Shown piece by piece: positions 13,655-48,158 of a stretch of DNA of 64,000 nt. Numbering within the stretch: the stretch's first letter is position 1; each line of letters starts with the position of its first letter. This DNA comes from Escherichia coli (GTDB lineage: Bacteria > Pseudomonadota > Gammaproteobacteria > Enterobacterales > Enterobacteriaceae): NCBI RefSeq assembly GCF_044324875.1, contig NZ_CP172185.1. One strand, given 5' to 3'. Under the pieces are notes generated by a model. It was not told the origin of the DNA. It saw only the letters and a list, made by a program, of their open reading frames with translations, and did not search any database. The translations under genes and the position numbers were made by a program.

Positions 13655-14605
13655 GTGAATTTCCAACAACTAAAGATAATCCGCGAGGCTGCACGTCAGG
13701 ATTACAACCTGACAGAGGTTGCGAATATGCTTTTTACCTCACAGTCAGGCGTCAGCCGTCACATTCGGGAACTGGAGGATGAACTTGGCATCGAAATATT
13801 TGTTCGACGAGGTAAGCGACTGCTGGGCATGACTGAACCGGGCAAAGCATTACTGGTCATTGCAGAACGCATTCTTAATGAAGCCAGTAATGTTCGTCGG
13901 CTTGCAGACCTGTTTACCAACGATACGTCTGGCGTTCTCACTATTGCAACGACGCATACTCAGGCACGTTATAGCTTGCCTGAGGTCATTAAAGCTTTTC
14001 GCGAACTTTTCCCGGAGGTTCGGCTGGAGCTAATCCAGGGTACGCCACAGGAAATTGCGACGTTGTTGCAAAATGGCGAAGCTGATATTGGTATCGCCAG
14101 CGAGCGTTTGAGTAATGACCCGCAGCTCGTCGCCTTCCCGTGGTTTCGTTGGCACCATAGTTTGCTTGTTCCACTCGATCATCCCTTGACGCAAATTACA
14201 CCGTTGACGCTGGAATCAATAGTGAAGTGGCCGTTAATCACTTACCGACAGGGGATTACGGGGCGCTCACGTATTGATGACGCATTTGCCCGCAAAGGTT
14301 TGCTGGCAGATATTGTATTAAGTGCGCAGGATTCTGATGTCATTAAAACCTATGTTGCTCTTGGGCTGGGGATTGGATTAGTTGCCGAACAATCCAGCGG
14401 CGAACAAGAGGAAGAGAATTTAATCCGTCTGGATACGCGGCATCTTTTCGATGCCAATACTGTATGGTTGGGACTGAAGCGAGGGCAACTTCAACGTAAC
14501 TATGTCTGGCGCTTTCTGGAACTTTGTAATGCAGGACTGTCAGTTGAGGATATCAAGCGCCAGGTGATGGAGAACAGTGAAGAGGAAATTGATTATCAGA
14601 TATAG
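13655..14605 (+). CDS. cbl: LysR-family regulator Cbl
   Basis: 316 aa ORF MNFQQLKIIREAARQDYNLTEVANMLFTSQSGVSRHIRELE...; CysB-like, adjacent to nac as in E. coli. Confidence 0.9.
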   Translation: MNFQQLKIIREAARQDYNLTEVANMLFTSQSGVSRHIRELEDELGIEIFVRRGKRLLGMTEPGKALLVIAERILNEASNVRRLADLFTNDTSGVLTIATTHTQARYSLPEVIKAFRELFPEVRLELIQGTPQEIATLLQNGEADIGIASERLSNDPQLVAFPWFRWHHSLLVPLDHPLTQITPLTLESIVKWPLITYRQGITGRSRIDDAFARKGLLADIVLSAQDSDVIKTYVALGLGIGLVAEQSSGEQEEENLIRLDTRHLFDANTVWLGLKRGQLQRNYVWRFLELCNAGLSVEDIKRQVMENSEEEIDYQI

Positions 14606-14606
14606 C

Positions 14607-14634
14607 AAAAAGCCCGCTATAAAAGCGGGCTTTT
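14607..14634. terminator. Intrinsic terminator hairpin after cbl
   Basis: AAAAAGCCCGC-TATAAA-GCGGGCTTTT immediately after the cbl stop. Confidence 0.6.
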
Positions 14635-14642
14635 CAGAAATT

Positions 14643-14718
14643 TGGCTCCTCTGACTGGACTCGAACCAGTGACATACGGATTAACAGTCCGCCGTTCTAC
14701 CGACTGAACTACAGAGGA
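14643..14718 (-). tRNA. asnU: tRNA-Asn (anticodon GUU)
   Basis: Same 76-nt tRNA-Asn sequence on the minus strand. Confidence 0.95.
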
Positions 14719-14878
14719 ATCGCTGTTGAGGCACATCTTAACGGCGAAAAATCTTTTGTCAAACCCGATTTTTAAATTTCCCAACTGTTTGCCGTTTCTA
14801 TCAACAGTTTGTTGCATTTGCAGACAATTTGTTGGCGAAAATCTTTGCAGCTTTGCTGATTCTCCCTCATTATTTGAA

Positions 14879-16366
14879 ATGTGGTTTCACTTTCTGCAAT
14901 TAAGGTCGGCTTTGAATATCTCCTCTGCTTTACGCCAGGTTGTTCACGGCACTCGCTGGCACGCCAAACGCAAGAGTTACAAAGTGTTGTTCTGGCGCGA
15001 GATAACCCCGCTTGCTGTTCCTATCTTCATGGAGAACGCCTGTGTCCTGTTGATGGGTGTCCTGAGCACTTTTCTGGTCAGCTGGCTGGGAAAAGATGCG
15101 ATGGCCGGCGTGGGATTGGCGGACAGCTTCAATATGGTCATTATGGCATTTTTTGCGGCTATCGATCTTGGTACCACTGTCGTTGTGGCATTTAGTCTCG
15201 GTAAGCGGGATCGACGACGAGCGAGGGTGGCGACGCGGCAGTCATTGGTGATCATGACGTTGTTTGCCGTGCTGTTGGCAACGCTTATTCATCATTTTGG
15301 CGAACAAATTATTGATTTCGTTGCGGGTGATGCCACGACAGAAGTTAAAGCACTGGCGTTGACTTATCTGGAGCTGACGGTACTCAGTTATCCAGCAGCT
15401 GCCATCACTTTGATTGGTAGTGGTGCACTTCGTGGTGCAGGGAATACGAAAATACCGCTACTGATTAACGGTAGCCTGAATATTCTTAATATTATTATTA
15501 GCGGCATATTGATTTACGGCCTTTTCTCCTGGCCGGGACTGGGATTTGTCGGGGCTGGGTTGGGTTTAACCATTTCTCGTTATATTGGCGCAGTGGCAAT
15601 TTTGTGGGTGCTGGCGATTGGTTTTAATCCTGCGCTAAGGATTTCGTTAAAGAGCTATTTTAAACCGCTGAATTTTAGCATTATCTGGGAAGTCATGGGG
15701 ATTGGTATTCCAGCAAGTGTCGAATCAGTATTATTTACCAGTGGTCGGTTATTAACCCAAATGTTCGTTGCCGGGATGGGGACCAGTGTTATTGCCGGAA
15801 ATTTTATCGCGTTTTCAATTGCGGCTCTTATCAACTTACCCGGAAGTGCGCTCGGCTCTGCTTCTACGATCATTACAGGCCGAAGGTTGGGAGTAGGGCA
15901 GATAGCGCAAGCAGAGATTCAGTTGCGGCATGTGTTCTGGCTGTCCACTCTTGGATTAACGGCCATCGCCTGGCTAACGGCTCCCTTTGCCGGGGTTATG
16001 GCATCGTTTTACACCCAGGATCCACAGGTTAAACATGTCGTTGTGATTCTGATTTGGCTAAATGCTTTATTTATGCCTATTTGGTCTGCCTCATGGGTGC
16101 TACCCGCTGGATTTAAGGGTGCTCGCGATGCACGTTACGCCATGTGGGTTTCTATGTTGAGCATGTGGGGTTGCCGGGTTGTAGTCGGTTATGTGCTGGG
16201 AATCATGCTTGGCTGGGGTGTGGTTGGTGTCTGGATGGGAATGTTTGCCGACTGGGCTGTGCGGGCCGTGCTGTTTTACTGGCGAATGGTTACTGGACGT
16301 TGGCTGTGGAAATATCCTCGACCTGAGCCGCAAAAGTGTGAAAAAAAGCCAGTTGTGTCGGAATAA
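14879..16366 (+). CDS. yeeO: MATE-family efflux transporter
   Basis: ORF track frame 14726..16366; start moved to an internal Met to give the roughly 495 aa I recall for YeeO; many transmembrane segments. Confidence 0.85.
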   Translation: MWFHFLQLRSALNISSALRQVVHGTRWHAKRKSYKVLFWREITPLAVPIFMENACVLLMGVLSTFLVSWLGKDAMAGVGLADSFNMVIMAFFAAIDLGTTVVVAFSLGKRDRRRARVATRQSLVIMTLFAVLLATLIHHFGEQIIDFVAGDATTEVKALALTYLELTVLSYPAAAITLIGSGALRGAGNTKIPLLINGSLNILNIIISGILIYGLFSWPGLGFVGAGLGLTISRYIGAVAILWVLAIGFNPALRISLKSYFKPLNFSIIWEVMGIGIPASVESVLFTSGRLLTQMFVAGMGTSVIAGNFIAFSIAALINLPGSALGSASTIITGRRLGVGQIAQAEIQLRHVFWLSTLGLTAIAWLTAPFAGVMASFYTQDPQVKHVVVILIWLNALFMPIWSASWVLPAGFKGARDARYAMWVSMLSMWGCRVVVGYVLGIMLGWGVVGVWMGMFADWAVRAVLFYWRMVTGRWLWKYPRPEPQKCEKKPVVSE

Positions 16367-16466
16367 ACGACAAAGTGCAGATTATTTCAGCAAACGATTT
16401 CAAATTTAAAAAACAGGCTTTGACATTGTGGATGAGCGTCGCTAATATTCGCCTCGTTCTCACGAT

Positions 16467-16542
16467 TCCTCTGTAGTTCAGTCGGTAGAACGGCGGACTG
16501 TTAATCCGTATGTCACTGGTTCGAGTCCAGTCAGAGGAGCCA
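16467..16542 (+). tRNA. asnW: tRNA-Asn (anticodon GUU)
   Basis: Plus-strand TCCTCTGTAGTTCAGTCGGTAGAACGGCGGACTGTTAATCCGTATGTCACTGGTTCGAGTCCAGTCAGAGGAGCCA. Confidence 0.95.
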
Positions 16543-16603
16543 AATTTTAGTTTTGAGACATCTCTATGAGTCTCAAGACAGTTAAAAAATAAAAATTATT
16601 TTT

Positions 16604-16638
16604 ACCCGGTTACCTTGTAAAAAGTGACCGGGTTTTTT
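16604..16638 (+). terminator. Intrinsic terminator after asnW
   Basis: ACCCGGTTACCTTGTAAAAAGTGACCGGGTTTTTT: hairpin plus T-run. Confidence 0.55.
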
Positions 16639-16996
16639 GATTTCTGTGTTTCGTGCGCTTAATCGAGTCTCACGCTTCAGTGAGCAAATTGCCCCTCCCC
16701 AACAGACATCACGATTCGCAAGGTCAAAAACTCTGTTCCATGAAGTACCGTACAAAGACAAAGAGAAAAATGCCTTATGCGGGATGTCGCTATCGCGTCT
16801 TTATCGGGAAACTATGCGTAATTGCCACTTTGCCTTCTGTAATCAGAAAAAGAAGAACTGGAATTTTAATAAATATTATTTCTCTGGGAATGGGGGGTTT
16901 TTATAAGCAATATGACGAGTTGAATATTATATTTTTTATAAGGATTATATGAGATTAAAGAAATCTGCCATAAAGACAGATTTCTTTAAAATATAA

Positions 16997-17713
16997 TTAG
17001 AGATTTGCGACGTTATGATAAACTTTTTGAACATCGTCGTCATCTTCAAGGGCATCAACAAGCCCTTCAAAGATTTCTAAATCTTCTGGGGAAAGCTCAA
17101 CTTCAGATTGAGCAATCATTTCTAATTCTGTTGTTGAGAACTCAGTGATTCCAGCTGCTTTTAGAGCCGCGATTCCTTTATGAAGGTCAGTAGGTTCAGT
17201 ATAAATAACAATATTACCTTCTTCTTCAGTTACATCACGAACATCAACTTCAGCTTCAAGTAAAATTTCAAAAATATGGTCAGGGTCTGTTCCTTTAAAT
17301 ACAATCACACCCGTATTGTCAAACATATAGCTGACAGAGCCTGCCGCTCCGATATTGCCGCCTTTTTTATTGAAAATTGTGCGAACGTTAGCAATCGTAC
17401 GGTTAACATTTGAAGTCAATGTCTCAGCGATAATCATTGAGCCATTAGGACCAAAGCCTTCATAACGGCCCTGCACGAACGTTTCATCTCCGCCGCCTTT
17501 GGCTTTATCAATTGCTTTATCAATAACGTGCTTTGGAACTTGTGCCTGCTTTGCTCGTTCAATAACGAATTTTAAAGATGTGTTTAATTCTGGATCGGGT
17601 TCACCTTGTTTGGCAGCGGCATAGATTTCTACACCGAATTTTGCATAAATTTTAGACGTCGCACCGTCTTTAGCCGTTTTTTTAGCAACAATATTGGCCC
17701 ATTTACGTCCCAC
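16997..17713 (-). CDS. yeeN: YebC/PmpR-family transcriptional regulator
   Basis: 238 aa [30 protein letters not shown]..., the conserved YebC-family N-terminus. Confidence 0.9.
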
Positions 17714-18054
17714 TGGAATGATCTCCTCGAAAATTTATTTACATTACTGGTAAATCGTTAACATGTGTTAATTCGGCATATTATATCATAACAGGAAAAA
17801 TCTCGTCTATTAGAAATAAAAATATTCTAAAGCCATAATATTATATTTAATCTCATAAAAACTAATGTTGTTGGCGGGATTTTTTATAATTGTGTTTTGA
17901 AAGCATACTTGCTTATAATATGTGGAAATCATTAAGGCTATAATAAAACTCGTATCCGCCCCAGGAAGCAAACAGCCTGCTTTATTGCAGGCTATTTGCT
18001 GGATGACTTACTAAATCCTTCACATCTATTCCTGATAAAAAGGAACAGAACTTA

Positions 18055-19509
18055 TTACCGGAACGGCGGCTCATTAAATGTTCGTAATTTACGTGAATGC
18101 AGTCGGTCGCCTTCTGCGCGCAGCAAATCGATCGCCCGAATGCCAATTTGCAGGTGTTCGGAAATAGCGCCTTCATAAAAACGGTTAGCCTGACCGGGAA
18201 GTTTAATCTCACCATGCAACGGTTTATCTGAAACACACAGTAGTGTCCCGTATGGCACGCGGAAACGATATCCTTGCGCGGCAATGGTTGCACTTTCCAT
18301 ATCAATTGCTACGGCCCGGCTTAAGTTAAAACGAAGTGCAGAAGCTGAGTAACGTAATTCCCAGTTCCTGTCATCTGTGGTTACCACAGTGCCAGTACGT
18401 AGCCGCTGTTTAACTTCCTCACCGGGCCTGCCGCTGACTAACTTGGTAGCGTCATAAAGCGCACGTTGCACTTCAGCAATGCTCGGAATAGGAATATCGG
18501 GCGGCAGTACCGCATCAAGAACGTGGTCATCGCGTAAATAAGCGTGTGCAAGTACATAATCTCCAATGGCCTGGCTTTCACGTAAGCCACCACAGTGACC
18601 AATCATCAACCAGACATCCGGGCGTAGCACCGCCAGATGATCGCAGATGGTTTTAGCATTTGACGGTCCCACGCCAATATTCACCAGAGTAATACCCTGA
18701 CCATCGGCGGTAATTAAATGCCATGCTGGCATCTGGTGTTTTTTCCATGCAAGGTCGGAAATGGCTTCTTCTGGCGCTTCGGTTTCGGCGGTGATCCAGT
18801 TCCCGCCAGCACAAGAAAGGGCAATGTAGGGACTATCAGGGTCGAGGATCTGGCTGCATCCCCAACGAACGAATTCATCCACATAACGTGTGTAGTTGGT
18901 AAACAAGACGAACGGCTGAAAATGTTCAACTGGCGTACCGGTATAATGGCGCAACCGCGCGAGGGAAAAATCGACGCGGCGCGCATCAAAATGCGATAGC
19001 GGGGAGAATTCAGTTGGATGATAAATGCCGTCTGCAGTTTCATCGCCAATTTGCGCCAGTTCTGTTGTCGGGAAATAGCGAGTTAACCCAGCGCTCATTG
19101 AGCGATCAAGTGTCAATTCAGAGCCATCGATGACATAAGGATAAGGGATTTCATGCTGCGAGGGTTGCACCGAGATATGCGCACCATAATCCTGATACAG
19201 CAACGTAAGTTGTTCATTGAGATACGAACGAAAGAGAGTAGGGCGAGTAATCGTGGTGGTGTAGCTGCCTGCGTGGGTAAAACGACCAAATGCGCGCGTT
19301 TTGGGGGGATTGGTTGTGCTACCGTCCCAGGTTACGGTCAGTGATGGATAGACAAAAAGACCTTGTTTGCGGGCGTTTTCATCAGGTAATTCGCCACTTG
19401 TAATATATTTGCCAATGGCGTTGCGTAATGCGACTACAGATTGCTCATACAGCGCGTCGAGTTTATCCAGTGCCTGAGCTGGGGTCAGACCGGAGCCCTT
19501 ATTATTCAT
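18055..19509 (-). CDS. amn: AMP nucleosidase
   Basis: ORF track frame 18055..19614; start moved to internal MNNKGSGLTPAQALDKL... giving 484 aa as I recall for Amn. Confidence 0.9.
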   Translation of the reverse strand: MNNKGSGLTPAQALDKLDALYEQSVVALRNAIGKYITSGELPDENARKQGLFVYPSLTVTWDGSTTNPPKTRAFGRFTHAGSYTTTITRPTLFRSYLNEQLTLLYQDYGAHISVQPSQHEIPYPYVIDGSELTLDRSMSAGLTRYFPTTELAQIGDETADGIYHPTEFSPLSHFDARRVDFSLARLRHYTGTPVEHFQPFVLFTNYTRYVDEFVRWGCSQILDPDSPYIALSCAGGNWITAETEAPEEAISDLAWKKHQMPAWHLITADGQGITLVNIGVGPSNAKTICDHLAVLRPDVWLMIGHCGGLRESQAIGDYVLAHAYLRDDHVLDAVLPPDIPIPSIAEVQRALYDATKLVSGRPGEEVKQRLRTGTVVTTDDRNWELRYSASALRFNLSRAVAIDMESATIAAQGYRFRVPYGTLLCVSDKPLHGEIKLPGQANRFYEGAISEHLQIGIRAIDLLRAEGDRLHSRKLRTFNEPPFR

Positions 19510-19610
19510 GTGTGTCTCCTGTTCCATACAATTACCGCACATCCGATAGTATGTCACAGAAATGTGAAACAAAAGTGTAAGGCGAAGATCGGATGATCTT
19601 CGCCAGACTA

Positions 19611-20927
19611 TCAAGCGCGTAGATTATCTTTCATCAACAAAGCGGTCATTGCGGAAATCAGGCATCCAGCCAGCAAATAAATGGCGACGCTATGCCAGTT
19701 CCCGGCAAAGTAAGTGATGAGTGCAGCGGCAATAAAAGGTGTAAATCCACCGCCAACCACACTGGCAACCTGATAACCGACTCCTGCACCACTATAGCGA
19801 TAACTGGCACCAAACATTTCGGTAAACATCGGTTGTTGCACACACACCACCATGTCATGCGCAATGTTTGCCAGCATTATGGAGAAGAAAACTATCCAGA
19901 AAATAGATTGTGTTTCAAGCGCCATAAAGAAAGGAAATGCGCTCAACGTTCCGATTAACGCGCCTGTGATATAAACCCTGCGGCGACCAAAACGATCGGC
20001 AAGCCAGGCAAAACAGGGAATGGTCAGGCAGCTTAATCCACCTACCAGCAAACCAATATTAAGGAAAAGTTCGCGCGGTAACCCCATATTCTGGGTTGAA
20101 TAATTAAGTGCGAAGGCGGTAACGATGTACATCGTCAGCAACTCGCACAGTCGTAGCGCAATAATCTTCAGGAAAGCACCGGGATGTCGTAATAGTGCTT
20201 CGATAACCGGAATGCGTTTTTTCGCGGCCGCTTGATTATGTTGCTGTTGTTCGAATTCCGCGGACTCCTCCATGCCATTACGCACCCACAATGCTCCCAG
20301 TACCAGTACGATGCTAAACAGGAAAGGAATGCGCCAGCCCCAGCTTAAAAACTGTTCGTCAGTCGTCATCATACTGATCAATGAAACCAGTCCAGTTGAA
20401 AGCAGTAAACCTACACCGTAGCCAACTTGTACACCGCTACTGTAAAAGGCTTTTTTATTTTTCGGTGCACTTTCAACGGAAAGTAACGCTGCGCCTCCCC
20501 ATTCGCCGCCGACGGCAAATCCCTGTATGGCACGCAGCGTCACCAGTAAAATGGGGGCCCACCACCCAATGGTCGAGAAGGAAGGAAGAATACCAATCAA
20601 GGCTGTCGCGATGCCCATCATCCAGACGGTCAGCATTAACATGCGCTTACGTCCCAGCCGGTCGCCAAAGTGACCGAAAATGACACCGCCGAGCGGACGG
20701 AAAAGGAATCCGACGCCAAAGGTGGCAAATGCGGCGAGCGTTCCCATAGCCGGGCTTACTTGCGGGAAAAACTCGCGATTAAACACCAGTGCGGCGGTAA
20801 TGCCATAGAGTAAAAAATCATACCAGTCGACGACGGCACCAGCGAAACTGCCTAACGCAGCTCGTCGGGCGCGACTTAACGAAAGCGTCCCTTCATCGGG
20901 ACGAGTGGAGATGAGCGTGGAGTCCAT
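19611..20927 (-). CDS. shiA: Shikimate transporter (MFS)
   Basis: 438 aa ORF with 12 predicted transmembrane segments; size and sequence match ShiA. Confidence 0.9.
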   Translation of the reverse strand: MDSTLISTRPDEGTLSLSRARRAALGSFAGAVVDWYDFLLYGITAALVFNREFFPQVSPAMGTLAAFATFGVGFLFRPLGGVIFGHFGDRLGRKRMLMLTVWMMGIATALIGILPSFSTIGWWAPILLVTLRAIQGFAVGGEWGGAALLSVESAPKNKKAFYSSGVQVGYGVGLLLSTGLVSLISMMTTDEQFLSWGWRIPFLFSIVLVLGALWVRNGMEESAEFEQQQHNQAAAKKRIPVIEALLRHPGAFLKIIALRLCELLTMYIVTAFALNYSTQNMGLPRELFLNIGLLVGGLSCLTIPCFAWLADRFGRRRVYITGALIGTLSAFPFFMALETQSIFWIVFFSIMLANIAHDMVVCVQQPMFTEMFGASYRYSGAGVGYQVASVVGGGFTPFIAAALITYFAGNWHSVAIYLLAGCLISAMTALLMKDNLRA

Positions 20928-21241
20928 AATGATCCTGTTTGTACTGTCTTTTTATAATTAGTATGGAAAAGGTAACTCACATTGCCGTCGATCTATAAAC
21001 GAACCTTATGAGACTACCTCGACAGAGCGCATCTGCAAATGATTTTATGGCTGATTAACGGCAACATGAAAAATTCGCTGGAAGATGAAAGTACAGGAGT
21101 TGCTGGTGTTGTTTAAGGATTAAGCAGAGCACCCACAGGTTCGAGATATGAAACATAAAAGTCCGCATATGCACAAAATGGCACCCTGATGAGTCTGATA
21201 GACTGCATTGCATTATAACCAGTAGGGAGGCGAGGTTAATT

Positions 21242-22294
21242 ATGTTTTTAGCATCATTGTTGAGACGTATTGCATTTAGTTACTACGATTATAAAGCTAA
21301 TAATTTCAATATTGGAAAAACAGAGTTTGTTGTCATCCATATTCCCGATCAAATTGGCGATGCTATGGCCATCTTTCCAGTTATTCGGGCGCTTGAACTG
21401 CATAAAATTAAGCATCTTTTAATTGTTACTTCGACTATTAATTTAGAAGTCTTTAATGCGCTCAAACTTGAACAGACTAAATTAACATTAGTCACAATGA
21501 CTATGCAGGATCACGCAACATTAAAAGAAATAAAAGATTTAGCGAAGAACATAACACAGCAATACGGTACGCCGGATCTTTGTATAGAGGCGATGCGTAA
21601 AAAGAACCTGAAAACAATGTTATTTATCAGTCAGTTGAAAGCAAAAACGAATTTTCAGGTTGTCGGTTTAACCATGAAGTGCTATTCCCCTTTGTGTAAG
21701 ACTGCGTCCCGGATGGATCAGAATCTCCGGGCTCCCGTACCCATGACATGGGCATTTATGATGCGTGAGGCGGGTTTTCCAGCAGTCAGGCCAATATATG
21801 AATTGCCATTAAGCGAGGATGCACTCGATGAGGTGCGCGAGGAAATGCGATCGTTAGGATCTTACATTGCGCTTAATTTAGAAGGTAGCTCGCAGGAGCG
21901 TACATTTTCATTATCGATTGCAGAAAATCTAATAGCAAAAATTCAAAGTGAAACAGATATACCAATAGTGATCGTTCATGGACCCAAAGGGGAAGATAAA
22001 GCCAGGGAACTAGTGAATAGTTATAATAATGTCTACCGTTTATCCTTGTCACCCTCGATTAAACGTTCAGCAGCAATCATAAAAGATGCTTATATCGCAA
22101 TAACACCTGACACCTCAATATTACATATGGCAAGTGCCTATAATACCCCCGTTGTTGCAATTTATGCTGATTACAAAACGCGATGGCCCGCAATGGCCGA
22201 TGTCTCGGAGTCAGTCGTCGTTGGGCAAAAAATTGACAATATAAGTCTGGATGAATTCGCAAAGGCATTAAAAAGTGTTTTGGCGAGAATATGA
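21242..22294 (+). CDS. yeeL: Glycosyltransferase family 9 (heptosyltransferase-like) protein, intact
   Basis: 350 aa uninterrupted ORF between shiA and yeeJ, at the position of the yeeL pseudogene of K-12 (from memory). Confidence 0.7.
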   Translation: MFLASLLRRIAFSYYDYKANNFNIGKTEFVVIHIPDQIGDAMAIFPVIRALELHKIKHLLIVTSTINLEVFNALKLEQTKLTLVTMTMQDHATLKEIKDLAKNITQQYGTPDLCIEAMRKKNLKTMLFISQLKAKTNFQVVGLTMKCYSPLCKTASRMDQNLRAPVPMTWAFMMREAGFPAVRPIYELPLSEDALDEVREEMRSLGSYIALNLEGSSQERTFSLSIAENLIAKIQSETDIPIVIVHGPKGEDKARELVNSYNNVYRLSLSPSIKRSAAIIKDAYIAITPDTSILHMASAYNTPVVAIYADYKTRWPAMADVSESVVVGQKIDNISLDEFAKALKSVLARI

Positions 22295-22873
22295 GGCAGT
22301 ATTTATGCATATTAATGCCGATCTGTTATGAACGGTGGTGTCATCAATACTCTGTGGCTGGTCAATCATTACAGAAAGCCAGTCTTTGGAGCAAAGCTGT
22401 ACTCACCGGATACGATCATAGTCACATCGAACGCGATTCTGGCGGAACCAAAACATTGTAATGTATTTCACCATCATAAATAAGGCAATCTAAACTTTAA
22501 CTCCCGTTAACTGCCATACATTATTATGAGTGGCGCTGATGTAATTTGTAATAGTGAAATATGAATTAATGTTGTTTGTACGTCCTAACATATCTTCCTT
22601 CTTGATGTAATTAGCTAAACATTAACGTGATTTGACTACATAGCAACAATGGTAGCTATCAAAAATAGCTCATGTACTTCGTTTCCTGCTGGCATGGAAC
22701 AGGTGGTTATATCGTGTGTGAAAGCTTTTATAAAAAGTAAGGAGGCTCGACTATCTTTAAACTAACAGGGGGTATGGGAAAATGCAGGTATATTAATGGA
22801 GCGTTTGACAGCAAACGAATATAAAAGCAGAGCGCCCCGAATGGAGCACTCTGTAAGAAAATATAGCGAAAAA

Positions 22874-31489
<8,616 letters not shown>

Positions 31490-31801
31490 GCTTACCTTCC
31501 CTGAACGAGCTAACATAAATGCGCCCTTTCTAGCACAGCGAAAAAAAGTAAATCCTGATAGCAATATGATTGAAAATTAATAACTTTTCGTTAAGCAGTT
31601 TTGGGTGTGAGTTGCAAGGGGGAGACTACTGAATTACTCAAGTTTTATAATCGAGGGGAAAATGGTGATGGCGTCCATAGCAAAACGCCCTCAACCATTA
31701 AGGTCGAGGGCGCTTAAGATGTCAAAAACCCGCTATCCGTTAAAAAGCAATGCTCAACTAAGGTCAGTGACATTGGGCTAAAAAAGCGAATTTTTAGAAT
31801 T

Positions 31802-31877
31802 TGGCTCCTCTGACTGGACTCGAACCAGTGACATACGGATTAACAGTCCGCCGTTCTACCGACTGAACTACAGAGGA
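31802..31877 (-). tRNA. asnT: tRNA-Asn (anticodon GUU)
   Basis: Fourth copy of the identical 76-nt tRNA-Asn sequence, minus strand. Confidence 0.95.
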
Positions 31878-32867: not shown

Positions 32868-32957
32868 CGGAGAGATGCCGGAGCGGCTGAACGGACCGGT
32901 CTCGAAAACCGGAGTGGGGGCAACTCCACCGGGGGTTCAAATCCCCCTCTCTCCGCC
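32868..32957 (+). tRNA. serU: tRNA-Ser (anticodon CGA)
   Basis: GGAGAGATGCCGGAGCGGCTGAACGGACCGGTCTCGAAAACCGGAGTGGGGGCAACTCCACCGGGGGTTCAAATCCCCCTCTCTCCGCCA: long-variable-arm class II tRNA with anticodon CGA. Confidence 0.9.
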
Positions 32958-33002
32958 AAAATTCAATCACTTATACATCATTAAGTCAGTGACAAAAATC
33001 AC

Positions 33003-37692: not shown

Positions 37693-37861
37693 AATGGCAG
37701 CCTCCACGTTGAGTATTGATAACTCACCACCGAGGCTTTCCACGACCATAATGGTGGTGAGACGTACAGGGGTGGAAATACCGGTCAACGTAGAACCCGG
37801 CCAGCCTTGCGGCTGCCCTGCACGCCCCACCATAATCTGAATGTGGCTGTGCTTCACGCAT

Positions 37862-37886
37862 AAAAAAACCGCCTGAGCGCGGTTGT
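37862..37886 (-). terminator. Intrinsic terminator on the minus strand upstream of rha
   Basis: Minus strand reads AACCGCGCTCAGGCGGTT followed by a U-run (plus strand TAAAAAAACCGCCTGAGCGCGGTT). Confidence 0.45.
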
Positions 37887-38501
37887 GCGCTACGTTTGAC
37901 TTCGGGTTTCCACGCCCGGCACCCGGTTTATGAGGTGCAGGTGCACTATAATTCCACCCGTACTGGTTTTCAATAGCTACATTCAACATTTTCTCTTACC
38001 TTTCATCACCGAAGTGAACTTTGTTGATGCGGTGCCAGGTGCCTCCAGGTGACGTTAACCAGTTAACAATTAACGCCGGATACAGAGAATCCACCCATAA
38101 CTCTGTTTTTGGTTTTAACTGTTCCACGTGCGATCAGCCGCATTCACCACATCACAAAATTCACTTTAAAAAGGGCGGCAGAGCAGTCACGGAGTAAAAC
38201 TGATACCGCAAAACGTCACCAGAAAATTGATAACAGATGGCGTTGCAGCGGGGTTGTCACTCAGGCGCATGGTCAACCTGACAACCCGGTGTCCTCAAGG
38301 GGAAGGGAACCCCGCCATGCTTACCGCCGCGCCATTTCGCGGAGTGCCACAACCGGAAGCGGACGGTCGACGAAAATTTAACGACAGGCTATATATGAAC
38401 CAGCTACCTCGCCGTGCGCTTTCGTGTTGTGTGCCTGCTTTTAACCACGTCAGGCGAGGTGGTATCCTCTGAGGGGTCTGTTACCCGAGAGGAAATTGGT
38501 T

Positions 38502-44549: not shown

Positions 44550-45215
44550 ATGACTATTGCTGATTTCAAACGGCCTAAATTGGAGCTCCCGAACGGGGCA
44601 AACAAACTACTACTGCACTCTTGCTGTGCTCCATGTTCCGGTGAAGTGATGGAGGCGCTTCAGGCCTCGGGAATCGACTACACCATCTTTTTCTACAACC
44701 CGAACATTCATCCTCAGAAAGAGTATTTAATTCGTAAGGATGAAAATATTCGCTTTGCTGAACAACACGGCGTGCCGTTTATCGATGCTGATTACGACAC
44801 CGACAACTGGTTTGAACGTGCCAAAGGAATGGAATGGGAGCCTGAGAGGGGGATCCGTTGTACCATGTGTTTTGACATGCGTTTTGAGCGGACAGCGTTG
44901 TACGCTGCTGAAAATGGTTTCAGTGTGATCAGCAGTTCACTGGGCATTTCACGCTGGAAAAATATGCAGCAGGTTAACGAGTGTGGGCGGCGAGCTGTTG
45001 CGCATTATCCGGGTATGGTGTACTGGGATTATAACTGGCGCAAGCAGGGCGGCTCGTCCCGTATGATTGAAATCAGCAAGCGCGAAAAATTCTATCAGCA
45101 GGAATATTGTGGCTGTGTGTATTCTCTGCGCGATACCAATCTACACCGCAAATCTCAGGGACGCCCTCTTATAAAAATTGGCCAACTCCACTACGGAAAA
45201 GAAGAGAAGGAGTGA
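44550..45215 (+). CDS. DUF208 / QueH-like protein (putative B12-independent epoxyqueuosine reductase)
   Basis: 221 aa with N-terminal [14 protein letters not shown] motif and further conserved Cys (…[10 protein letters not shown]…, …EYCGCVYS…), resembling what I remember of the DUF208/QueH family; own promoter-like region upstream. Confidence 0.55.
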
Positions 45216-45451
45216 TTTTATGGATCACCTTTCTGATTGATTTCATATTGGCGAGGTGACGGGAGTTAAGTAGAATTGCTGCGGGTGCTTGAGGCTATCT
45301 GCCTCGGGCATGAACACCAACGGCAGATAGAGAAAAGCCCCAGTTAACATTATGCGTCCTGCAAGACGCTTAACATTAATCTGAGGCAGAATCTATGTCT
45401 AGCAAATGTAGGTTAGCCTCTTACGTGCCGAAAGGCAAGGAGAAGCAGGCT

Positions 45452-45607
45452 ATGAAGCAGCAAAAGGCGATGTTAGTCGCCCTGATCGTCATCTGTATTA
45501 CCGTCATTGTGACGGCACTGGTAACGAGGAAAGACCTCTGCGAGGTACGAATCCGAACCGGCCAGACGGAGGTCGCTGTCTTCACAGCTTACGAACCTGA
45601 GGAGTAA
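45452..45607 (+). CDS. hok: Hok/Gef-family type I toxin
   Basis: MKQQKAMLVALIVICITVIVTALVTRKDLCEVRIRTGQTEVAVFTAYEPEE, 51 aa, near-identical to chromosomal Hok/Gef peptides; the ORF track frame extends in-frame upstream to 45395. Confidence 0.8.
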   Translation: MKQQKAMLVALIVICITVIVTALVTRKDLCEVRIRTGQTEVAVFTAYEPEE

Positions 45608-45711
45608 GAGACCAGGCGAGGGAGAAATCCCTCGCCACCTCTGATGTGTCAGGCATTCTCAACGCACCCGCACTTAACCCGCTTCGGCTGTTCCTTAGTT
45701 TGTCCTGATTT

Positions 45712-46065
45712 TTATTTATTACTAATACATGATTTAATTCCTTGAATCCTCTTGTTTTTTCCATTGGTAGGATCTAACACACCTCGAAGAGAATAAAAAT
45801 CAATAGTGGTAGAGCCGTCTGCTGACTTATAAATGTCGGCATTATCTGCAACTGCTAATACACTGTAATATTTACCAATTTTTTGAGAAGTGATAGTATA
45901 CAAGAGAGGTACACGTTGCCACTCACTGAGAATGCATTCTTGTATTTCTTGTGGTGGAGAATTTGTTTTAAATGAAATGATAATATCCTGCTCTTCTCTA
46001 TAATTATAAGGGTTTACGCATCCAGAAATTGCGAAAGAAAACAGAAGAATAATGATCCTGTTCAT
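45712..46065 (-). CDS. Small lipoprotein of unknown function
   Basis: ORF track frame 45712..46095; start at internal MNRIIILLFSFAISGC (signal peptide plus lipobox-like ISGC); gene is AT-rich by eye. Confidence 0.55.
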   Translation of the reverse strand: MNRIIILLFSFAISGCVNPYNYREEQDIIISFKTNSPPQEIQECILSEWQRVPLLYTITSQKIGKYYSVLAVADNADIYKSADGSTTIDFYSLRGVLDPTNGKNKRIQGIKSCISNK

Positions 46066-46127
46066 TTTTTTGCCTCTTTTGAAAATATTACTCAATTATT
46101 TTAGTTGCGGTGTGTTATAAGCATTAA

Positions 46128-46427
46128 CTATAAAATATTAGATTCATAATTTTGTCCGCCGTGGTAAACGCCAGCGATAAAGACTTTATTGCCATCAACG
46201 GCAAAAGCAATAATCGTTCTGTGTCGGAAATGAGTTACCCGCATCCCCTGGCGAATATCATCGCGTTTATTGCCCCGATGCGGGAATGTAGAAAACCCAT
46301 CAAGATAATCAAGAAGCGCATTGGCATAATTGTCAGCAATGACGCTTCTTGCTTTCTCCGTTATATATCTGTGCAGGTTTATTATCTGCTGTTCGGCCTC
46401 GGGGGTAATGATGACTTCATATGTCAT
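46128..46427 (-). CDS. parE: ParE/RelE-family type II toxin
   Basis: 99 aa MTYEVIITPEAEQQIINLHRYI...; immediately downstream of a ParD-like gene. Confidence 0.7.
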   Translation of the reverse strand: MTYEVIITPEAEQQIINLHRYITEKARSVIADNYANALLDYLDGFSTFPHRGNKRDDIRQGMRVTHFRHRTIIAFAVDGNKVFIAGVYHGGQNYESNIL

Positions 46428-46432
46428 GCAGA

Positions 46433-46690
46433 TTACTTCCCGGATCGAATCGCGGCGCGAACCTGTGAAATGGAGCGTCCGTTGTTTGGATTTTCGCGGA
46501 TAGAATCAAGAGAGGGGGCGGCTGAATGCGTTAACCACGCTTCGATTGCTTTATCGCGCTCATTCAGTGCACGAAGCCCTTCACGAATGACCTCGCTTTC
46601 TGAAGCATAGGCACCGGAAGCCACACGGGCGCGCACCATGTCAGCCATCTCGTTAGTTAATGTAATGCTGAATTGTTGGGTTGTACGCAT
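46433..46690 (-). CDS. parD: ParD-like antitoxin
   Basis: Start at internal MRTTQQFSITLTNEMADMVRARVASGAYASESEVIREGLRAL... (ParD-like N-terminus); 5 nt upstream of parE. Confidence 0.65.
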   Translation of the reverse strand: MRTTQQFSITLTNEMADMVRARVASGAYASESEVIREGLRALNERDKAIEAWLTHSAAPSLDSIRENPNNGRSISQVRAAIRSGK

Positions 46691-46825
46691 GGTAAACCTC
46701 ACGGAGTAGGATAGAACACTATTCGATGATAGCACGCTGCCTGTTGACGACAACAGAAATCAGAGACAATATTGCCGCACGCCAGCCTGAACAACTGGCA
46801 CCTGCTGCGCCAGCAGAGAAAACAA

Positions 46826-47098
46826 ATGGCGCACAATACCAAAAATCACAATTCTGATGCCGTTCGTGCCAGCAGGCATGGGCGGCGTTCGCGCGTATTT
46901 AAAACCGACTGGTACCAACACCCTCCATGCACTGAAGAACAGGCCGAATGGCTGATTCAGTGTTACCGCAGACACGGATACGAGATTAAGAAAGCCCTCA
47001 GCCTCGATTATCGTCACTGGATAATCTCCGTCAGGCTTCCTTACTCAGAACGCCCACCGCGTCCGTCCCGCACATACCAGCAACGTATCTGGAGGTAA
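46826..47098 (+). CDS. Hypothetical phage protein
   Basis: ORF track frame 46772..47098; probable start at internal MAHNTKNH...; stop followed by the next gene's ribosome-binding site. Confidence 0.4.
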   Translation: MAHNTKNHNSDAVRASRHGRRSRVFKTDWYQHPPCTEEQAEWLIQCYRRHGYEIKKALSLDYRHWIISVRLPYSERPPRPSRTYQQRIWR

Positions 47099-47099
47099 C

Positions 47100-48158
47100 G
47101 TGCGGGTATTACTTCGACCTGTTCTGGTACCGGAACTCGGGCTGGTGGTCCTTAAGCCCGGTCGTGAATCCATGCCGGTATTTCACAATCCTCGAGTGCT
47201 GGTGGAGCCGGAACCGAAAAGTATGTGCGGCCTGCCATCCGGAGTCGTCCCTGCCGTTCGCCAGCCGCTGGCGGAGGATAAATCATTACTGCCATTTTTC
47301 AGCGATGATCGGGTGATTCGTGCTGTTGGCGGCGCTGGGGCACTGTCTGACTGGCTGTTGCGTCATGTCAAATCCTGCCAGTGGCCTCATGGTGACTATC
47401 ATCACAGTGAAATCGTCATACATCGTTACGGTACCGGCGCGATGGTGTTGTGCTGGCACTGCGACAACCAGCTGCGTGACCAGACATCCGAATCACTCGA
47501 GCAACTTGCTCATCAAAACCTGTCAGCATGGATGATTGACGTCATCGGTCACGCAATAAGCGGTACGCAGGAGCGTGAATTATCTCTGGCTGAATTATCC
47601 TGGTGGGCGGTCCGCAATCAGGTGGCGGACGCGCTTCCGGAGGCAGTATTACGTCGTTCTCTGGGGTTACGTGCGGAAAAAATCCGCTCCTTGTACCGCG
47701 AAAGCGACATCGTACCGGGAGAGCAGACCGTCACCAGCATACTGAAGCAGCGCACAAAAAATATTGCGCTACCGCCTCTCGTCCACCAGCAACAGAACCC
47801 ACCACAGGAAGAGACGGTGGTCAGCATTGCCGTTGATCCGGAGTCACCGGCTCAGTATCTCCAGCGCCAGAAACCACAACGGGAAGAGATGCCTGTATAC
47901 ACGCGCTGGGTAAAAACGCAGAAATGCATGACGTGCGGTAATCAGGCAGATGATCCGCATCACATCATTGGTCATGGACTGGGAGGGATGGGAACAAAGG
48001 CTGATGATTTGTTTGTTATTCCGCTGTGCCGTAAATGTCATAACGAACTGCACGCCGGGGTAAAAGATTTTGAAGAAAAACACGGCAGCCAGCTGTTGTT
48101 GCTGATTCGTTTTTTAATGCACGCGAGAAATTCAGGTGTCCTGAAGTGGAAAGCATAA
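47100..48158 (+). CDS. DUF968-like nin-region protein with C-terminal Cys/His HNH-like motif
   Basis: GTG start after GGAGG; C-terminus CMTCGN...DPHHIIGHGLGGMGTKADDLFVIPLCRKCHNELH; sits before rusA. Confidence 0.5.
   Translation: MRVLLRPVLVPELGLVVLKPGRESMPVFHNPRVLVEPEPKSMCGLPSGVVPAVRQPLAEDKSLLPFFSDDRVIRAVGGAGALSDWLLRHVKSCQWPHGDYHHSEIVIHRYGTGAMVLCWHCDNQLRDQTSESLEQLAHQNLSAWMIDVIGHAISGTQERELSLAELSWWAVRNQVADALPEAVLRRSLGLRAEKIRSLYRESDIVPGEQTVTSILKQRTKNIALPPLVHQQQNPPQEETVVSIAVDPESPAQYLQRQKPQREEMPVYTRWVKTQKCMTCGNQADDPHHIIGHGLGGMGTKADDLFVIPLCRKCHNELHAGVKDFEEKHGSQLLLLIRFLMHARNSGVLKWKA

What the first reader, a model, noticed from the sequence alone, without database searches (positions are those of the whole stretch)
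45380..45700. hok-type type I toxin locus with hairpin-rich leader and 3' region
The 51-aa peptide is near-identical to Hok/Gef toxins and the ORF is extended in-frame upstream in the track. Inverted repeats flank it (CTATCTGCC...GGCAGATAG upstream; GGCGAGGGAGAAATCCCTCGCC downstream), as expected for a hok mRNA with a sok-like antisense partner. It sits immediately after the QueH-like gene.
Basis: partly seen in the sequence, partly recalled or inferred. Interest (0 to 1): 0.4.

Follow-up and report, generated by a model that had tools for sequence, protein, structure and literature searches.

The report
Prophage hok/sok toxin-antitoxin cassette
This is an ordinary, already catalogued hok/mok/sok type I toxin-antitoxin cassette sitting in a lambda-like prophage: a small membrane toxin gene held in check by the folding of its own mRNA and, as predicted here, by a short antisense RNA.

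Summary
Window 45248-45688 is a complete hok/mok/sok cassette. It is larger than the reported 45380-45700, which misses the first ~100 nt of the mRNA and most of the sok gene.

- **Toxin:** the 51-aa peptide (45452-45607) matches Pfam HOK_GEF (E 6e-24). It is 49/51 identical to K-12 HokD/RelF and identical to the RefSeq HokD of strain JNEC-KY177.
- **Leader:** it matches Rfam RF01794 at 114.9 bits (threshold 59).
- **RNA elements:** every regulatory element of the plasmid R1 model is present. These are tac, ucb/anti-SD, the mok SD/dcb target hairpin, fbi, an in-frame mok, and a Sok-like gene on the minus strand (45403 to 45333) with its promoter at 45410-45438.
- **Structure test:** the pairings hold across 13 diverse hok loci (80.7% of cells paired against about 41% when partners are slid), with compensatory changes.
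- **Relatives:** the DNA is 93% identical to hokW-sokW of phages 933W/Sp5, shown experimentally to be a type I toxin-antitoxin pair. The same QueH-hok arrangement covers at least 80% of the query in about 2,600 complete E. coli genomes.

Two local peculiarities: the intrinsic terminator after fbi has been cut by a 1.09-kb lipoprotein+ParDE cassette, and the Sok-recognition loop carries a rare allele within a hypervariable patch.

Verdict: already known, low interest.

The parts
45248..45276 (+). hok (mok-hok) promoter: -35 TTGGCG, 17-nt spacer, -10 TAGAAT
   Evidence: The consensus scan found it. The -10 and the downstream sequence are invariant in the four close relatives aligned. It puts the transcription start about 7 nt downstream, at 45283, where the Rfam model match begins.
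45283..45688 (+). Full-length mok-hok mRNA: 5' end inferred, 3' end undefined because the terminator is truncated
   Evidence: Rfam RF01794 matches 45283-45457. The fold has z = -7.2. It is 93-98% identical to hokW/hokD cassettes. Homology to other cassettes stops at 45688-45692.
45283..45294 (+). tac element (GGGTGCTTGAGG), the 5' end that pairs alternately with fbi, with ucb, or with the adjacent metastable partner
   Evidence: The MFE fold and duplex prediction support it. The tac/fbi helix is 92% paired in 13 loci, with 4 pairs changed on both sides. It does not vary at all in the 88 IMG/VR-derived cassettes with an intact hok ORF used for pairwise diversity.
45295..45330 (+). 5' hairpin CTATCTGCC ...
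   Evidence: It is 99% paired in 13 loci, with 2 pairs changed on both sides.
45335..45341 (+). ucb / anti-SD box (AAGCCCC). It pairs with the mok SD in the closed form and with tac in the open form.
   Evidence: The extended inverted repeat 45284-45303 / 45322-45341 shows the tac partner. The tac/ucb helix is 97% paired. hokB shows a coupled change, U7 to C7, with A to G in both ucb and fbi. GCCCC is invariant in alignment A3.
45333..45403 (-). Predicted Sok-like antisense RNA, about 71 nt: a 5' single-stranded tail, a long hairpin, then GGGGCUUUU
   Evidence: Coordinates were transferred from the annotated sokW of 933W (L001 1571-1641, minus strand) through an alignment with no gaps in that stretch. 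The 5' end has the same offset from the mok ATG (+8) as K-12 sokC. The fold is -28.1 kcal/mol, z = -4.9.
45410..45438 (-). Predicted sok promoter: -35 TTGCCT (45438-45433), 17-nt spacer, -10 TAACCT (45415-45410)
   Evidence: Read directly from the sequence. The -10 region TAGGTTAG on the plus strand is identical to the one mutated in the sokW 'pro-less' construct (primers, result). The consensus scan did not flag it, because the -10 matches only 3 of 6 positions.
45383..45420 (+). Sok-target hairpin: mok SD GAGG(C) at 45383-45387 pairs with dcb GCCTC at 45416-45420. The inner stem holds the mok AUG, and the loop is CUAGCAA (45399-45405).
   Evidence: The hairpin is predicted for this allele and for all 19 alleles found in IMG/VR loci. 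The outer stem is paired in 10-11 of 13 loci. It is part of the Rfam model structure.
45395..45607 (+). mok reading frame, 70 codons, in frame with hok
   Evidence: ORF list. It is homologous to the annotated mokW of 933W, which shares its stop codon with hokW, and to K-12 mokC.
45452..45607 (+). hok toxin gene, 51 codons, with SD AAGGAG at 45437-45442
   Evidence: PF01848 at E 5.8e-24. PHROG 251 'MokW-like host killing' at E 7e-33. The translation is identical to that of the RefSeq-annotated hokD gene of strain JNEC-KY177 (WP_000813267.1).
45615..45636 (+).
   Evidence: Position. It is 96% paired in 13 loci, and 7 of 9 pairs change on both sides.
45657..45669 (+). fbi element (T)CTCAA(C)GCACCC, which pairs with tac to close the full-length mRNA
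   Evidence: Supported. The window has a G-U wobble at the twelfth pair (T45657) where its relatives have C.
45677..45688 (+). Remnant (5' arm and loop, plus the first two bases of the 3' arm) of the intrinsic terminator ACCCGCTTCGGC|GGGTTTT found in relatives
   Evidence: Alignments with JNEC, Rac442 and K-12 hokD show the full terminator. No terminator-like site exists on the plus strand in 45100-47300.

Best explanation
Window 45248-45688 is a structurally intact hok/mok/sok type I toxin-antitoxin cassette of the HokD/HokW branch. It sits in the early-right (nin-like) region of a lambdoid prophage.

**Inferred mechanism, by homology to plasmid R1 hok/sok and phage hokW-sokW:**
1. A weak promoter makes a stable mRNA of about 390 nt or more.
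2. The 5' end of that mRNA (tac) pairs with the 3' fbi box. In this closed form the mok Shine-Dalgarno sequence is held by the anti-SD box GCCCC (ucb), so neither mok nor hok is translated and Sok cannot bind.
3. Slow 3' trimming removes fbi.
4. tac then pairs with ucb, and the mok SD moves into the SD/dcb hairpin. This form is translatable, and it is also the target of Sok.
5. The unstable antisense Sok RNA of about 71 nt (45403 to 45333, minus strand) binds through its 5' tail to the hairpin loop that covers the mok start codon. This blocks mok translation, and therefore hok translation, and leads to cleavage of the duplex.
6. If Sok synthesis stops, for example on prophage induction, transcription shut-off or loss of the element, the pool of processed mRNA is translated. 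The 51-aa Hok peptide inserts in the inner membrane and kills or lyses the cell.

**Shown here:** the ORFs, family membership, every RNA element and the conservation and covariation of their pairings, and the promoter sequences.

**Inferred:** transcription of both strands, processing, toxicity, and the biological role. The most likely role is helping lysis and phage release on induction, as reported for hokW-sokW. Prophage stabilisation or exclusion of other phages are alternatives.
For: - **Toxin:** Pfam HOK_GEF at E 5.8e-24 and PHROG 251 at E 7e-33.
- **Leader model:** Rfam RF01794 at 114.9 bits against a gathering score of 59, full model length. The same model hits the annotated K-12 hokC, hokB and hokE loci and 933W hokW in the same orientation.
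- **Functional relative:** 93.1% DNA identity over 417 nt to 933W/Sp5, where mokW, hokW and sokW are annotated. HokW toxicity, sokW antitoxin activity and a role in phage release were shown experimentally (PMC8621323).
- **Prevalence:** places covering at least 80% of the query, 95.7-96.9% identical among the listed top hits, occur in about 2,600 complete E. coli genomes (2,606 genomes; 2,610 records). In all 25 listed hits the annotation is QueH followed by hokD. One genome has a 98.2% identical cassette with the same Sok-target allele.
- **Full-length structure** projected on 13 diverse hok loci: 80.7% of cells paired against 39-44% when partners are slid. 40 pairs change on both sides, and 0 of 500 shuffles reach the observed values.
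- **Individual helices:** tac/fbi 92% paired, tac/ucb 97%, metastable 5' hairpin 85%. hokB shows a coupled three-way change.
- **Fold energies:** z = -7.2 for the mRNA and -4.9 for the Sok candidate.
- **Sok promoter:** the -10 region is identical to the experimentally mutated sokW -10.
- **R1 model:** the description of tac, fbi, ucb and dcb comes from PMC9841398.
Against: - No expression data are available, so transcription of either strand is inferred.
- The sok -10 hexamer TAACCT matches the consensus at only 3 of 6 positions and was not flagged by the promoter scan.
- The intrinsic terminator that follows fbi in JNEC, Rac442 and K-12 hokD is cut at 45688 by an inserted cassette. No other plus-strand terminator is predicted up to 47300. 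The 3' end and the stability of the inert mRNA pool may therefore differ. 933W hokW, which is functional, also lacks that terminator.
- The minimum-free-energy fold of a 3'-truncated RNA did not reproduce the open conformation by itself.
- Three chromosomal hok loci that carried intact elements (hokA of E. coli C, hokB of K-12, hokC of ECOR24) could not mediate post-segregational killing (statement in bioRxiv 10.1101/2025.08.07.668861).
- The NCBIfam Hok models are matched only below their curated cut-offs (48.6 bits against 73).
Confidence: 0.86

Rival explanations
1. The cassette is an inactive relic. All the sequence elements are there, but the locus does not kill or is not regulated, like the chromosomal hok loci of E. 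coli K-12. The truncated terminator, or subtle mutations, could be the cause.
For: The terminator after fbi is cut and no replacement is predicted. fbi carries a C-to-T change that turns one tac/fbi pair into a G-U wobble. The literature reports chromosomal hokA, hokB and hokC loci that could not mediate post-segregational killing. In K-12, hokA, hokC and hokE are interrupted by IS elements and hokD has lost its leader.
Against: No IS element, frameshift or stop codon disrupts any element here. The Hok peptide is identical to a widespread RefSeq protein, and HokD is reported as toxic. 933W hokW-sokW lacks the same terminator and still works. tac, ucb, fbi, both SD sequences and the sok -10 are identical to those of the functional relative.
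Confidence: 0.12
2. It is an orphan HokD/RelF-type toxin gene with no antisense antitoxin, as in K-12 Qin, where hokD is the third gene of the relBE operon.
For: PGAP labels the homologous genes 'HokD'. The peptide is 49/51 identical to K-12 HokD.
Against: K-12 hokD has relE sequence upstream and lacks tac, ucb, mok and the sok region. The window has the complete leader, which matches Rfam RF01794 over its full length, and the sokW-homologous gene and promoter.
Confidence: 0.015
3. A chance small ORF with chance hairpins.
For: None beyond the small size of the ORF.
Against: Pfam, PHROG and Rfam scores lie far above their thresholds. The fold has z = -7.2. Pairings covary across 13 loci. There are thousands of conserved homologues.
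Confidence: 0.005

Closest known systems
hokW-mokW-sokW of Stx2 phages 933W and Sp5 (VT2-Sakai)
   Same: 93.1% DNA identity over the whole cassette. The tac, 5' hairpin, ucb, sok terminator hairpin, sok -35 and -10, hok SD and fbi core are identical. mok is in frame with hok, and Hok is 45/51 identical. Both sit in a lambdoid (pro)phage, and both lack the ACCCGC...GCGGGT terminator.
   Different: The Sok-target loop, the mok codons 2-5 and the Sok 5' tail differ (CTATGTCTAGCAAATG here, CCATGCTGAACACATG in 933W). The Hok C-terminus differs (TAYEPEE here, VDYESEK in 933W). The genomic position differs too: here it follows the replication genes and QueH, while in 933W it lies near the right end of the genome.
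hok/mok/sok of plasmid R1 (parB), the paradigm
   Same: The architecture and the set of alternative RNA pairings are the same: tac/fbi, tac/ucb, SD/anti-SD, SD/dcb and the metastable hairpin. The antisense RNA overlaps the mok start. The Rfam leader model is the same one (model description in PMC9841398).
   Different: An R1-like plasmid Hok is only about 39% identical by tblastn, and IncF-plasmid Hok family toxins 44.9%. In the IncF plasmid (R1-type) sequences aligned here, mok is out of frame with hok (58-nt offset, from my own count); here the offset is 57 nt and in frame. tac is GGCGCUU in R1 and GGGUGCUU here, with matching changes in fbi. The replicon is a plasmid rather than a prophage.
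hokD (relF) of the K-12 Qin prophage
   Same: The peptide is 49/51 identical. The 3' UTR hairpin, fbi and the 5' arm of the terminator are conserved. Both sit in a lambdoid prophage.
   Different: K-12 hokD has lost the whole 5' leader, including mok and sok, and sits behind relBE. The window has the full leader but has lost the terminator.
hokC (gef)/mokC/sokC of the E. coli chromosome
   Same: mok is in frame, the tac sequence is the same, and the Sok 5' end lies at the same offset from the mok ATG (+8). Hok is about 86% identical.
   Different: It is a chromosomal, non-prophage locus. In K-12 its 3' end, including fbi, is removed by IS186. Its Sok hairpin is shorter: the window and hokW have a 16-nt insertion relative to the Rfam consensus.

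Membership tests
[quoted passage not shown] | Hok/Gef toxin of about 50 aa (Pfam PF01848) | tested here: met
   83.9 bits, E 5.8e-24, against a cut-off of 22; residues 6-47 cover the full 42-position profile. PHROG 251 matches at E 7e-33.
[quoted passage not shown] | A mok reading frame that starts upstream of hok, has its own SD and overlaps hok | tested here: met
   The ATG is at 45395, with GAGG 8 nt upstream. The frame has 70 codons and is in frame with hok. It is homologous to the annotated mokW and mokC.
[quoted passage not shown] | A conserved structured 5' leader (Rfam RF01794) | tested here: met
   114.9 bits against a gathering score of 59, model positions 1-157 of 157. The model is sense to hok, as calibrated on annotated loci.
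[quoted passage not shown] | Long-range tac/fbi pairing between the 5' and 3' ends of the mRNA | tested here: met
   12 pairs with one bulge appear in the MFE fold. The helix is 92% paired across 13 loci, with 4 pairs changed on both sides.
[quoted passage not shown] | Alternative pairings tac/ucb and mok SD/anti-SD (closed form) versus mok SD/dcb (open form, the Sok target) | tested here: met
   tac/ucb is 97% paired, with a coupled change in hokB. The SD/anti-SD helix is 85% paired. The SD/dcb hairpin is predicted for all 19 alleles.
[quoted passage not shown] | A cis-encoded antisense Sok RNA gene with its own promoter, overlapping the mok translation start | tested here: inconclusive
   At the sequence level it is present: a homologue of the annotated sokW, a promoter TTGCCT-17-TAACCT identical at the -10 to the one validated for sokW, and a typical fold. 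Transcription cannot be observed here, and the consensus scan did not flag the promoter.
[quoted passage not shown] | 3' processing of a stable full-length mRNA into an active truncated form | not testable with these tools
   This needs Northern blots or 3' RACE. The terminator that would define the full-length 3' end is truncated here.
[quoted passage not shown] | Toxicity of Hok and its neutralisation by Sok | not testable with these tools
   Shown for the 93%-identical hokW-sokW (PMC8621323). HokD is reported toxic on overexpression.
NCBIfam NF007279 (Hok family toxin, subfamily model) and NF007290 (HokA equivalog) | Score at or above the curated cut-off | tested here: not met
   48.6 bits against 73, and 39.5 against 89. 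The peptide belongs to the HokC/D/W branch rather than to these models. This does not affect Pfam family membership.
hokW-sokW subtype (lambdoid phage cassettes) | Near-identical cassette from the -10 of the hok promoter to fbi | tested here: met
   93.1% identity over 417 nt to 933W/Sp5 and 96.0% to phages HannyBb and Evi. 113 cassettes, counting the window itself, were assembled from an IMG/VR scan using anchors flanking the target loop.

The most novel reading that the evidence does not exclude
The 22-nt patch at 45388-45409 covers the loop and upper stem of the Sok-target hairpin, the Sok 5' tail and mok codons 2-5. It may be under diversifying selection that creates mutually orthogonal Sok/hok recognition classes among the several prophage-borne copies found in one Escherichia genome, and the window may carry a rare class.

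The patch shows 19 alleles in 113 cassettes and a pairwise difference of 0.34-0.41, against 0.04 at hok third codon positions. The window's allele is exact in only 1 of 5,426 complete E. coli genomes.

A less likely addition: replacement of the hok terminator by a convergent lipoprotein+ParDE cassette lets hok read-through transcripts run antisense into a type II toxin-antitoxin operon, coupling the two systems.
Probability: 0.2. Interest if true: 0.4.

Novelty: already known. Interest (0 to 1): 0.1.

Why it matters
It matters little as a discovery. The hok/sok family has been a textbook case of RNA-controlled cell killing since the 1980s. The phage variant hokW-sokW was annotated in 1999 and tested functionally in 2021, and the same QueH-hok arrangement is annotated in thousands of E. 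coli genomes.

The practical value is in annotation.
- The locus is a full three-gene cassette, 45248-45688, not an orphan "HokD".
- Automated annotation misses mok, sok and the RNA elements.
- The Rfam "sok" hit is on the hok strand, so the real Sok gene is its reverse complement.

The side observations, a hypervariable Sok-recognition patch and cassette boundaries that fall inside the terminator, could feed a study of how co-resident type I systems avoid cross-talk and how small accessory cassettes (morons) are swapped in lambdoid phages.

Tried and rejected
- **Promoter/terminator scan.** It found the hok promoter but not the sok promoter, whose -10 matches the consensus at only 3 of 6 positions, and it found no terminators. 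The sok promoter was therefore placed by homology and from the published mutant primers rather than by the scan.
- **MFE folding of a 3'-truncated mRNA, 45283-45640.** It produced the tac/adjacent "metastable" hairpin and left the mok SD paired, so it did not reproduce the open form. I relied instead on conservation of the named tac/ucb and SD/dcb pairings.
- **The helix tested.** I first took it to be tac/ucb. After reading PMC9841398 and seeing the extended inverted repeat, I reassigned it to the metastable hairpin of the nascent transcript.
- **NCBIfam.** It gave only sub-threshold Hok hits and nothing for QueH, ParE or the lipoprotein-like ORF.
- **Other hok copies.** tblastn of three Hok types against the window found no second hok gene, and Rfam found no second leader.
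- **Other Rfam hits in the region.** The weak E-value hits to ceN48, CRISPR-DR57 and CsrC lie far below their gathering scores and were dismissed as chance.
- **Minus-strand ORFs.** The mechanical ORFs overlapping hok (45421-45585 and 45582-45764) have no support and were not pursued.
- **Loci left out of the covariation set.** E. albertii (L005), Enterobacter (L016) and K. variicola (L018) are truncated or rearranged at the 5' end.
- **Exact source.** No complete E. coli genome covers more than 64% of the 20-kb prophage segment.
Full report
**1. What is in the sequence**

The interval holds a 51-codon ORF at 45452-45607 (+). An in-frame ATG at 45395 extends it to 70 codons. The 51-aa product matches Pfam HOK_GEF over the whole profile (E 5.8e-24, 83.9 bits against a cut-off of 22) and PHROG 251 "MokW-like host killing" (E 7e-33).

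The gene just upstream, 44550-45215, is a QueH homologue (PF02677, E 1e-65).

The stated start of 45380 is too far downstream. The promoter-like site TTGGCG-17-TAGAAT lies at 45248-45276. The Rfam hok/sok leader model RF01794 matches 45283-45457 end to end at 114.9 bits, against a gathering score of 59.

**2. A caution on the Rfam hit**

RF01794 is called "sok antitoxin", but it matches the hok strand. In K-12 it hits the strand of hokC, hokB and hokE while the annotated sokC, sokB and sokE lie on the other strand. In phage 933W it hits the hokW strand while sokW is annotated opposite. The model therefore describes the hok mRNA leader, and the real Sok gene is the reverse complement of its middle part.

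**3. Relatives**

- **Phages.** The cassette is 96.0% identical to those of phages HannyBb and Evi. It is 93.1% identical over 417 nt to 933W and VT2-Sakai (Sp5), where mokW, hokW and sokW are annotated.
- **E. coli genomes.** Matches occur in 4,727 of 5,426 complete genomes, with a median of 2 and up to 10 copies. About 2,600 genomes (2,606 genomes; 2,610 records) hold a place covering at least 80% of the query, and all 25 listed top hits carry QueH followed by "hokD".
- **Peptide.** It is identical to the product of the RefSeq-annotated hokD gene of strain JNEC-KY177 (WP_000813267.1). It is 49/51 identical to K-12 HokD/RelF, 45/51 to HokW and about 86% to HokC/Gef; tblastn gave about 39% to an R1-like plasmid Hok and 44.9% to IncF-plasmid Hok family toxins.
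- **Experiments on hokW-sokW.** Takada et al. 2021 (PMC8621323) showed that HokW is toxic. They showed that sokW, transcribed from its own promoter, neutralises it, and that a promoter-less sokW unmasks the toxicity. After mitomycin C, sokW RNA disappears and HokW is made. Deleting the locus halves the release of Sp5 phage.
- **Survey.** A 2026 preprint catalogues 44,248 Hok homologues and reports enrichment in prophages (bioRxiv 10.1101/2025.08.07.668861).

**4. Anatomy of the RNA elements**

The R1 model is summarised in PMC9841398. A closed full-length mRNA is held by a tac/fbi stem, with the mok SD sequestered by the ucb (anti-SD). [quoted passage not shown] That form is translatable and is the Sok target. 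A metastable 5' hairpin forms in the nascent chain. All of these can be placed in the window:

| Element | Coordinates | Sequence / note |
|---|---|---|
| tac | 45283-45294 | GGGTGCTTGAGG |
| 5' hairpin | 45295-45330 | CTATCTGCC ... GGCAGATAG |
| ucb / anti-SD | 45335-45341 | AAGCCCC |
| mok SD | 45383-45386 | GAGG |
| dcb | 45416-45420 | GCCTC |
| hok SD | 45437-45442 | AAGGAG |
| fbi | 45657-45669 | (T)CTCAA(C)GCACCC |

The MFE fold of 45283-45675 closes the molecule through tac/fbi and pairs GCCCC with the mok SD. It scores -159.4 kcal/mol against -118.3 +/- 5.7 for shuffles, z = -7.2.

**5. Conservation test**

I aligned the window with 12 other hok loci (alignment A3):
- 933W, Rac of strain 442/2, and three E. 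coli prophage copies;
- an IncY P1-like plasmid;
- four R1-type plasmid loci from Klebsiella, Shigella, Salmonella and Kosakonia;
- K-12 hokB;
- a Vibrio plasmid locus.

| Structure tested | Cells paired | Note |
|---|---|---|
| Window's full-length structure | 80.7% (39-44% with partners slid) | 40 pairs change on both sides; 0/500 shuffles reach the values |
| tac/fbi | 92% | UA/CG exchange between hokW-type and R1-type |
| 5' hairpin | 99% | 2 pairs change on both sides |
| 3'-UTR hairpin | 96% | 7 of 9 pairs compensatory |
| tac/ucb | 97% | |
| Metastable 5' hairpin | 85% | |

In hokB the tac change U7 to C7 is matched by A to G in both its fbi partner and its ucb partner. This is the kind of coupled covariation expected if one segment pairs alternately with two others.

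One caveat applies. The structure was derived from the window sequence, so the comparison with slid partners is partly circular. The compensatory changes are not circular.

**6. The antisense gene**

Transferring the 933W sokW annotation (L001 1571-1641, minus strand) through an alignment with no gaps in that stretch places the Sok-like RNA at 45403 to 45333 on the minus strand. Its 5' end lies 8 nt inside mok, as it does for K-12 sokC. It folds into a single-stranded tail of about 16 nt, a long hairpin and GGGGCUUUU (-28.1 kcal/mol, z = -4.9).

Upstream on the minus strand lie TTGCCT (45438-45433), a 17-nt spacer, and TAACCT (45415-45410). The plus-strand sequence TAGGTTAG here is identical to the one that Takada et al. 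changed to CCGGCTCG to make their promoter-less sokW (primers YO-421/422; phenotype). Transcription itself remains inferred.

**7. How it most likely works**

The mechanism follows the R1 and hokW paradigm, as set out in the best explanation. The mRNA is made in a closed, inert form, and slow 3' trimming opens it. The short-lived Sok RNA binds the loop that holds the mok start and blocks mok translation, and therefore hok translation. When Sok is no longer made, Hok accumulates and permeabilises the inner membrane.

Because mok is in frame with hok here (57-nt offset), ribosomes starting at mok would make an N-terminally extended Hok. The same is true of mokW and mokC. In the IncF plasmid (R1-type) sequences and in Rac 442/2 the offset is 58 nt, which is out of frame (my own count).

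The biological role in this prophage is not determined. Help with lysis on induction is the only role shown for a close relative.

**8. What is particular to this copy**

- **(a) The terminator is cut.** In JNEC, Rac 442/2 and K-12 hokD, fbi is followed by ACCCGCTTCGGCGGGTTTT(G)TTTT. In the window the sequence is cut after ...CTTCGGC at 45688. The 36 nt of JNEC are replaced by a 1,087-bp cassette (45689-46775) that carries three minus-strand genes: a lipoprotein-like ORF (PHROG 914), ParE and ParD. Homology resumes at CGCACGCCAGCC, at 46776. No plus-strand terminator is predicted up to 47300. Six E. coli genomes share the hok-lipoprotein-ParDE order at 88-91% identity. 933W also lacks this terminator and is functional, so this is a variation and not evidence of decay.
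- **(b) The cassette is a discrete module.** In strain ESBLEC_MG32 a 98.2% identical cassette lies between entirely different neighbours. Homology starts at about 45255 and ends at 45692.
- **(c) The Sok-recognition patch is hypervariable.** An exact-anchor scan of IMG/VR gave 113 cassettes (including the window itself), 95 of them distinct. Entropy peaks at 45393-45402. There are 19 alleles of the stretch between the anchors, all keeping the hairpin. Mean pairwise difference is 0.34-0.41 in the patch, against 0.04 at hok third codon positions, 0.12 in the 3' UTR and 0 in tac. The window's allele is absent from the other 112 cassettes and exact in 1 of 5,426 E. coli genomes. This could reflect selection for non-cross-reacting Sok/hok pairs. 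It could equally be free drift at the one place where a cis-antisense pair stays complementary whatever mutates. I did not resolve this.

**9. Context**

The window carries four tRNA-Asn genes and a tRNA-Ser(CGA) gene at 32869-32958. A cobalamin riboswitch lies further upstream in the chromosomal part, at 7842-8016. After the tRNA-Ser gene come prophage features: DicF, C4 and IsrK RNA matches at 37750-38224, a replication-region ORF followed by DUF1627- and DUF977-homologous genes, QueH, the hok cassette, ParDE, and a DUF968 homologue (RusA follows in the relatives). The hok cassette therefore sits in the early-right region of a lambdoid prophage integrated next to serU. The chromosomal part is only 90-95% identical to most complete E. 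coli genomes, with a best match of 97.3%. The host is probably a divergent Escherichia lineage.

**10. Verdict**

The locus belongs to a thoroughly characterised family, and the same cassette is annotated, at least for hok, in thousands of genomes. Novelty: already known. Interest: low, about 0.1. The only threads of some interest are the hypervariable recognition patch and the terminator-level cassette exchange.

Noticed in passing
window 45388-45409: There is a hypervariable patch inside an otherwise 93-98% conserved cassette. It covers the loop and upper stem of the Sok-target hairpin, the Sok 5' tail and mok codons 2-5. It has 19 alleles in 113 cassettes (112 IMG/VR loci plus the window), and pairwise difference is 0.34-0.41 against 0.04 at hok third codon positions. 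The window's allele is exact in only 1 of 5,426 complete E. coli genomes. It may mark Sok/hok specificity classes, or it may be unconstrained drift.
   Followed up: partly
window 45677-45688 and 45689-46775: The intrinsic terminator after fbi (ACCCGCTTCGGCGGGTTTT in relatives) is cut after GGC. A 1,087-bp cassette replaces 36 nt of the JNEC-type sequence, and homology resumes at 46776. No plus-strand terminator is predicted up to 47300, so hok transcripts may read into the convergent genes.
   Followed up: partly
window 45712-46068 (-), 46128-46427 (-), 46433-46690 (-): The inserted cassette encodes three minus-strand genes. The first is a lipoprotein-like ORF of 118 aa (signal peptide ending LFSFAISGC; PHROG 914, function unknown; no Pfam or NCBIfam hit). 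The other two form a ParE/ParD type II toxin-antitoxin pair (PF05016, PF03693, TIGR02606, PHROG 5232 and 6494). Two different toxin-antitoxin systems therefore sit back to back.
   Followed up: partly
window 45283-45457; L001, L007, L008, L011: Rfam RF01794, 'sok antitoxin', matches the hok (sense) strand in every annotated control locus. A hit therefore marks the hok mRNA leader, and Sok is on the opposite strand.
   Followed up: yes
window 45590-45593: The Tyr47 codon of hok is TAC followed by G, a UACG motif kept in 12 of the 13 loci (K-12 hokB has a hard-coded TGC there). The literature reports TadA A-to-I editing that recodes Tyr to Cys in hokB and similar events in hokC, hokD and hokE, needed for a disulfide bond (intro of bioRxiv 10.1101/2025.08.07.668861). 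This copy would need the same editing to gain its second structural cysteine.
   Followed up: no
window 37750-38224 (-): Rfam matches above threshold to C4 antisense RNA (37750-37837), IsrK (37862-37938) and DicF (38173-38224) lie in the prophage early region.
   Followed up: no
window 7842-8016; 12235-31877; 32869-32958: A cobalamin riboswitch (7842-8016), then four identical tRNA-Asn genes, then tRNA-Ser(CGA). The prophage genes begin after the tRNA-Ser, which suggests integration at serU.
   Followed up: no
window 17000-31000: The chromosomal backbone is only 90-95% identical to most of the 5,426 complete E. coli genomes, with a best match of 97.3%. The host is probably a divergent Escherichia lineage rather than typical E. 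coli.
   Followed up: partly
window 44550-45215: A QueH (epoxyqueuosine reductase) homologue is encoded inside the prophage immediately upstream of hok (PF02677; PHROG 3217, 'unknown function'). All 25 listed top E. coli hits annotate QueH next to hokD.
   Followed up: no
phage record PP818812.1 (hit H5): A record named Actinobacillus phage vB_Apl-pPE4 carries a hok cassette 96.5% identical to this Escherichia one. That host label is unexpected for such a near-identical enterobacterial module.
   Followed up: no
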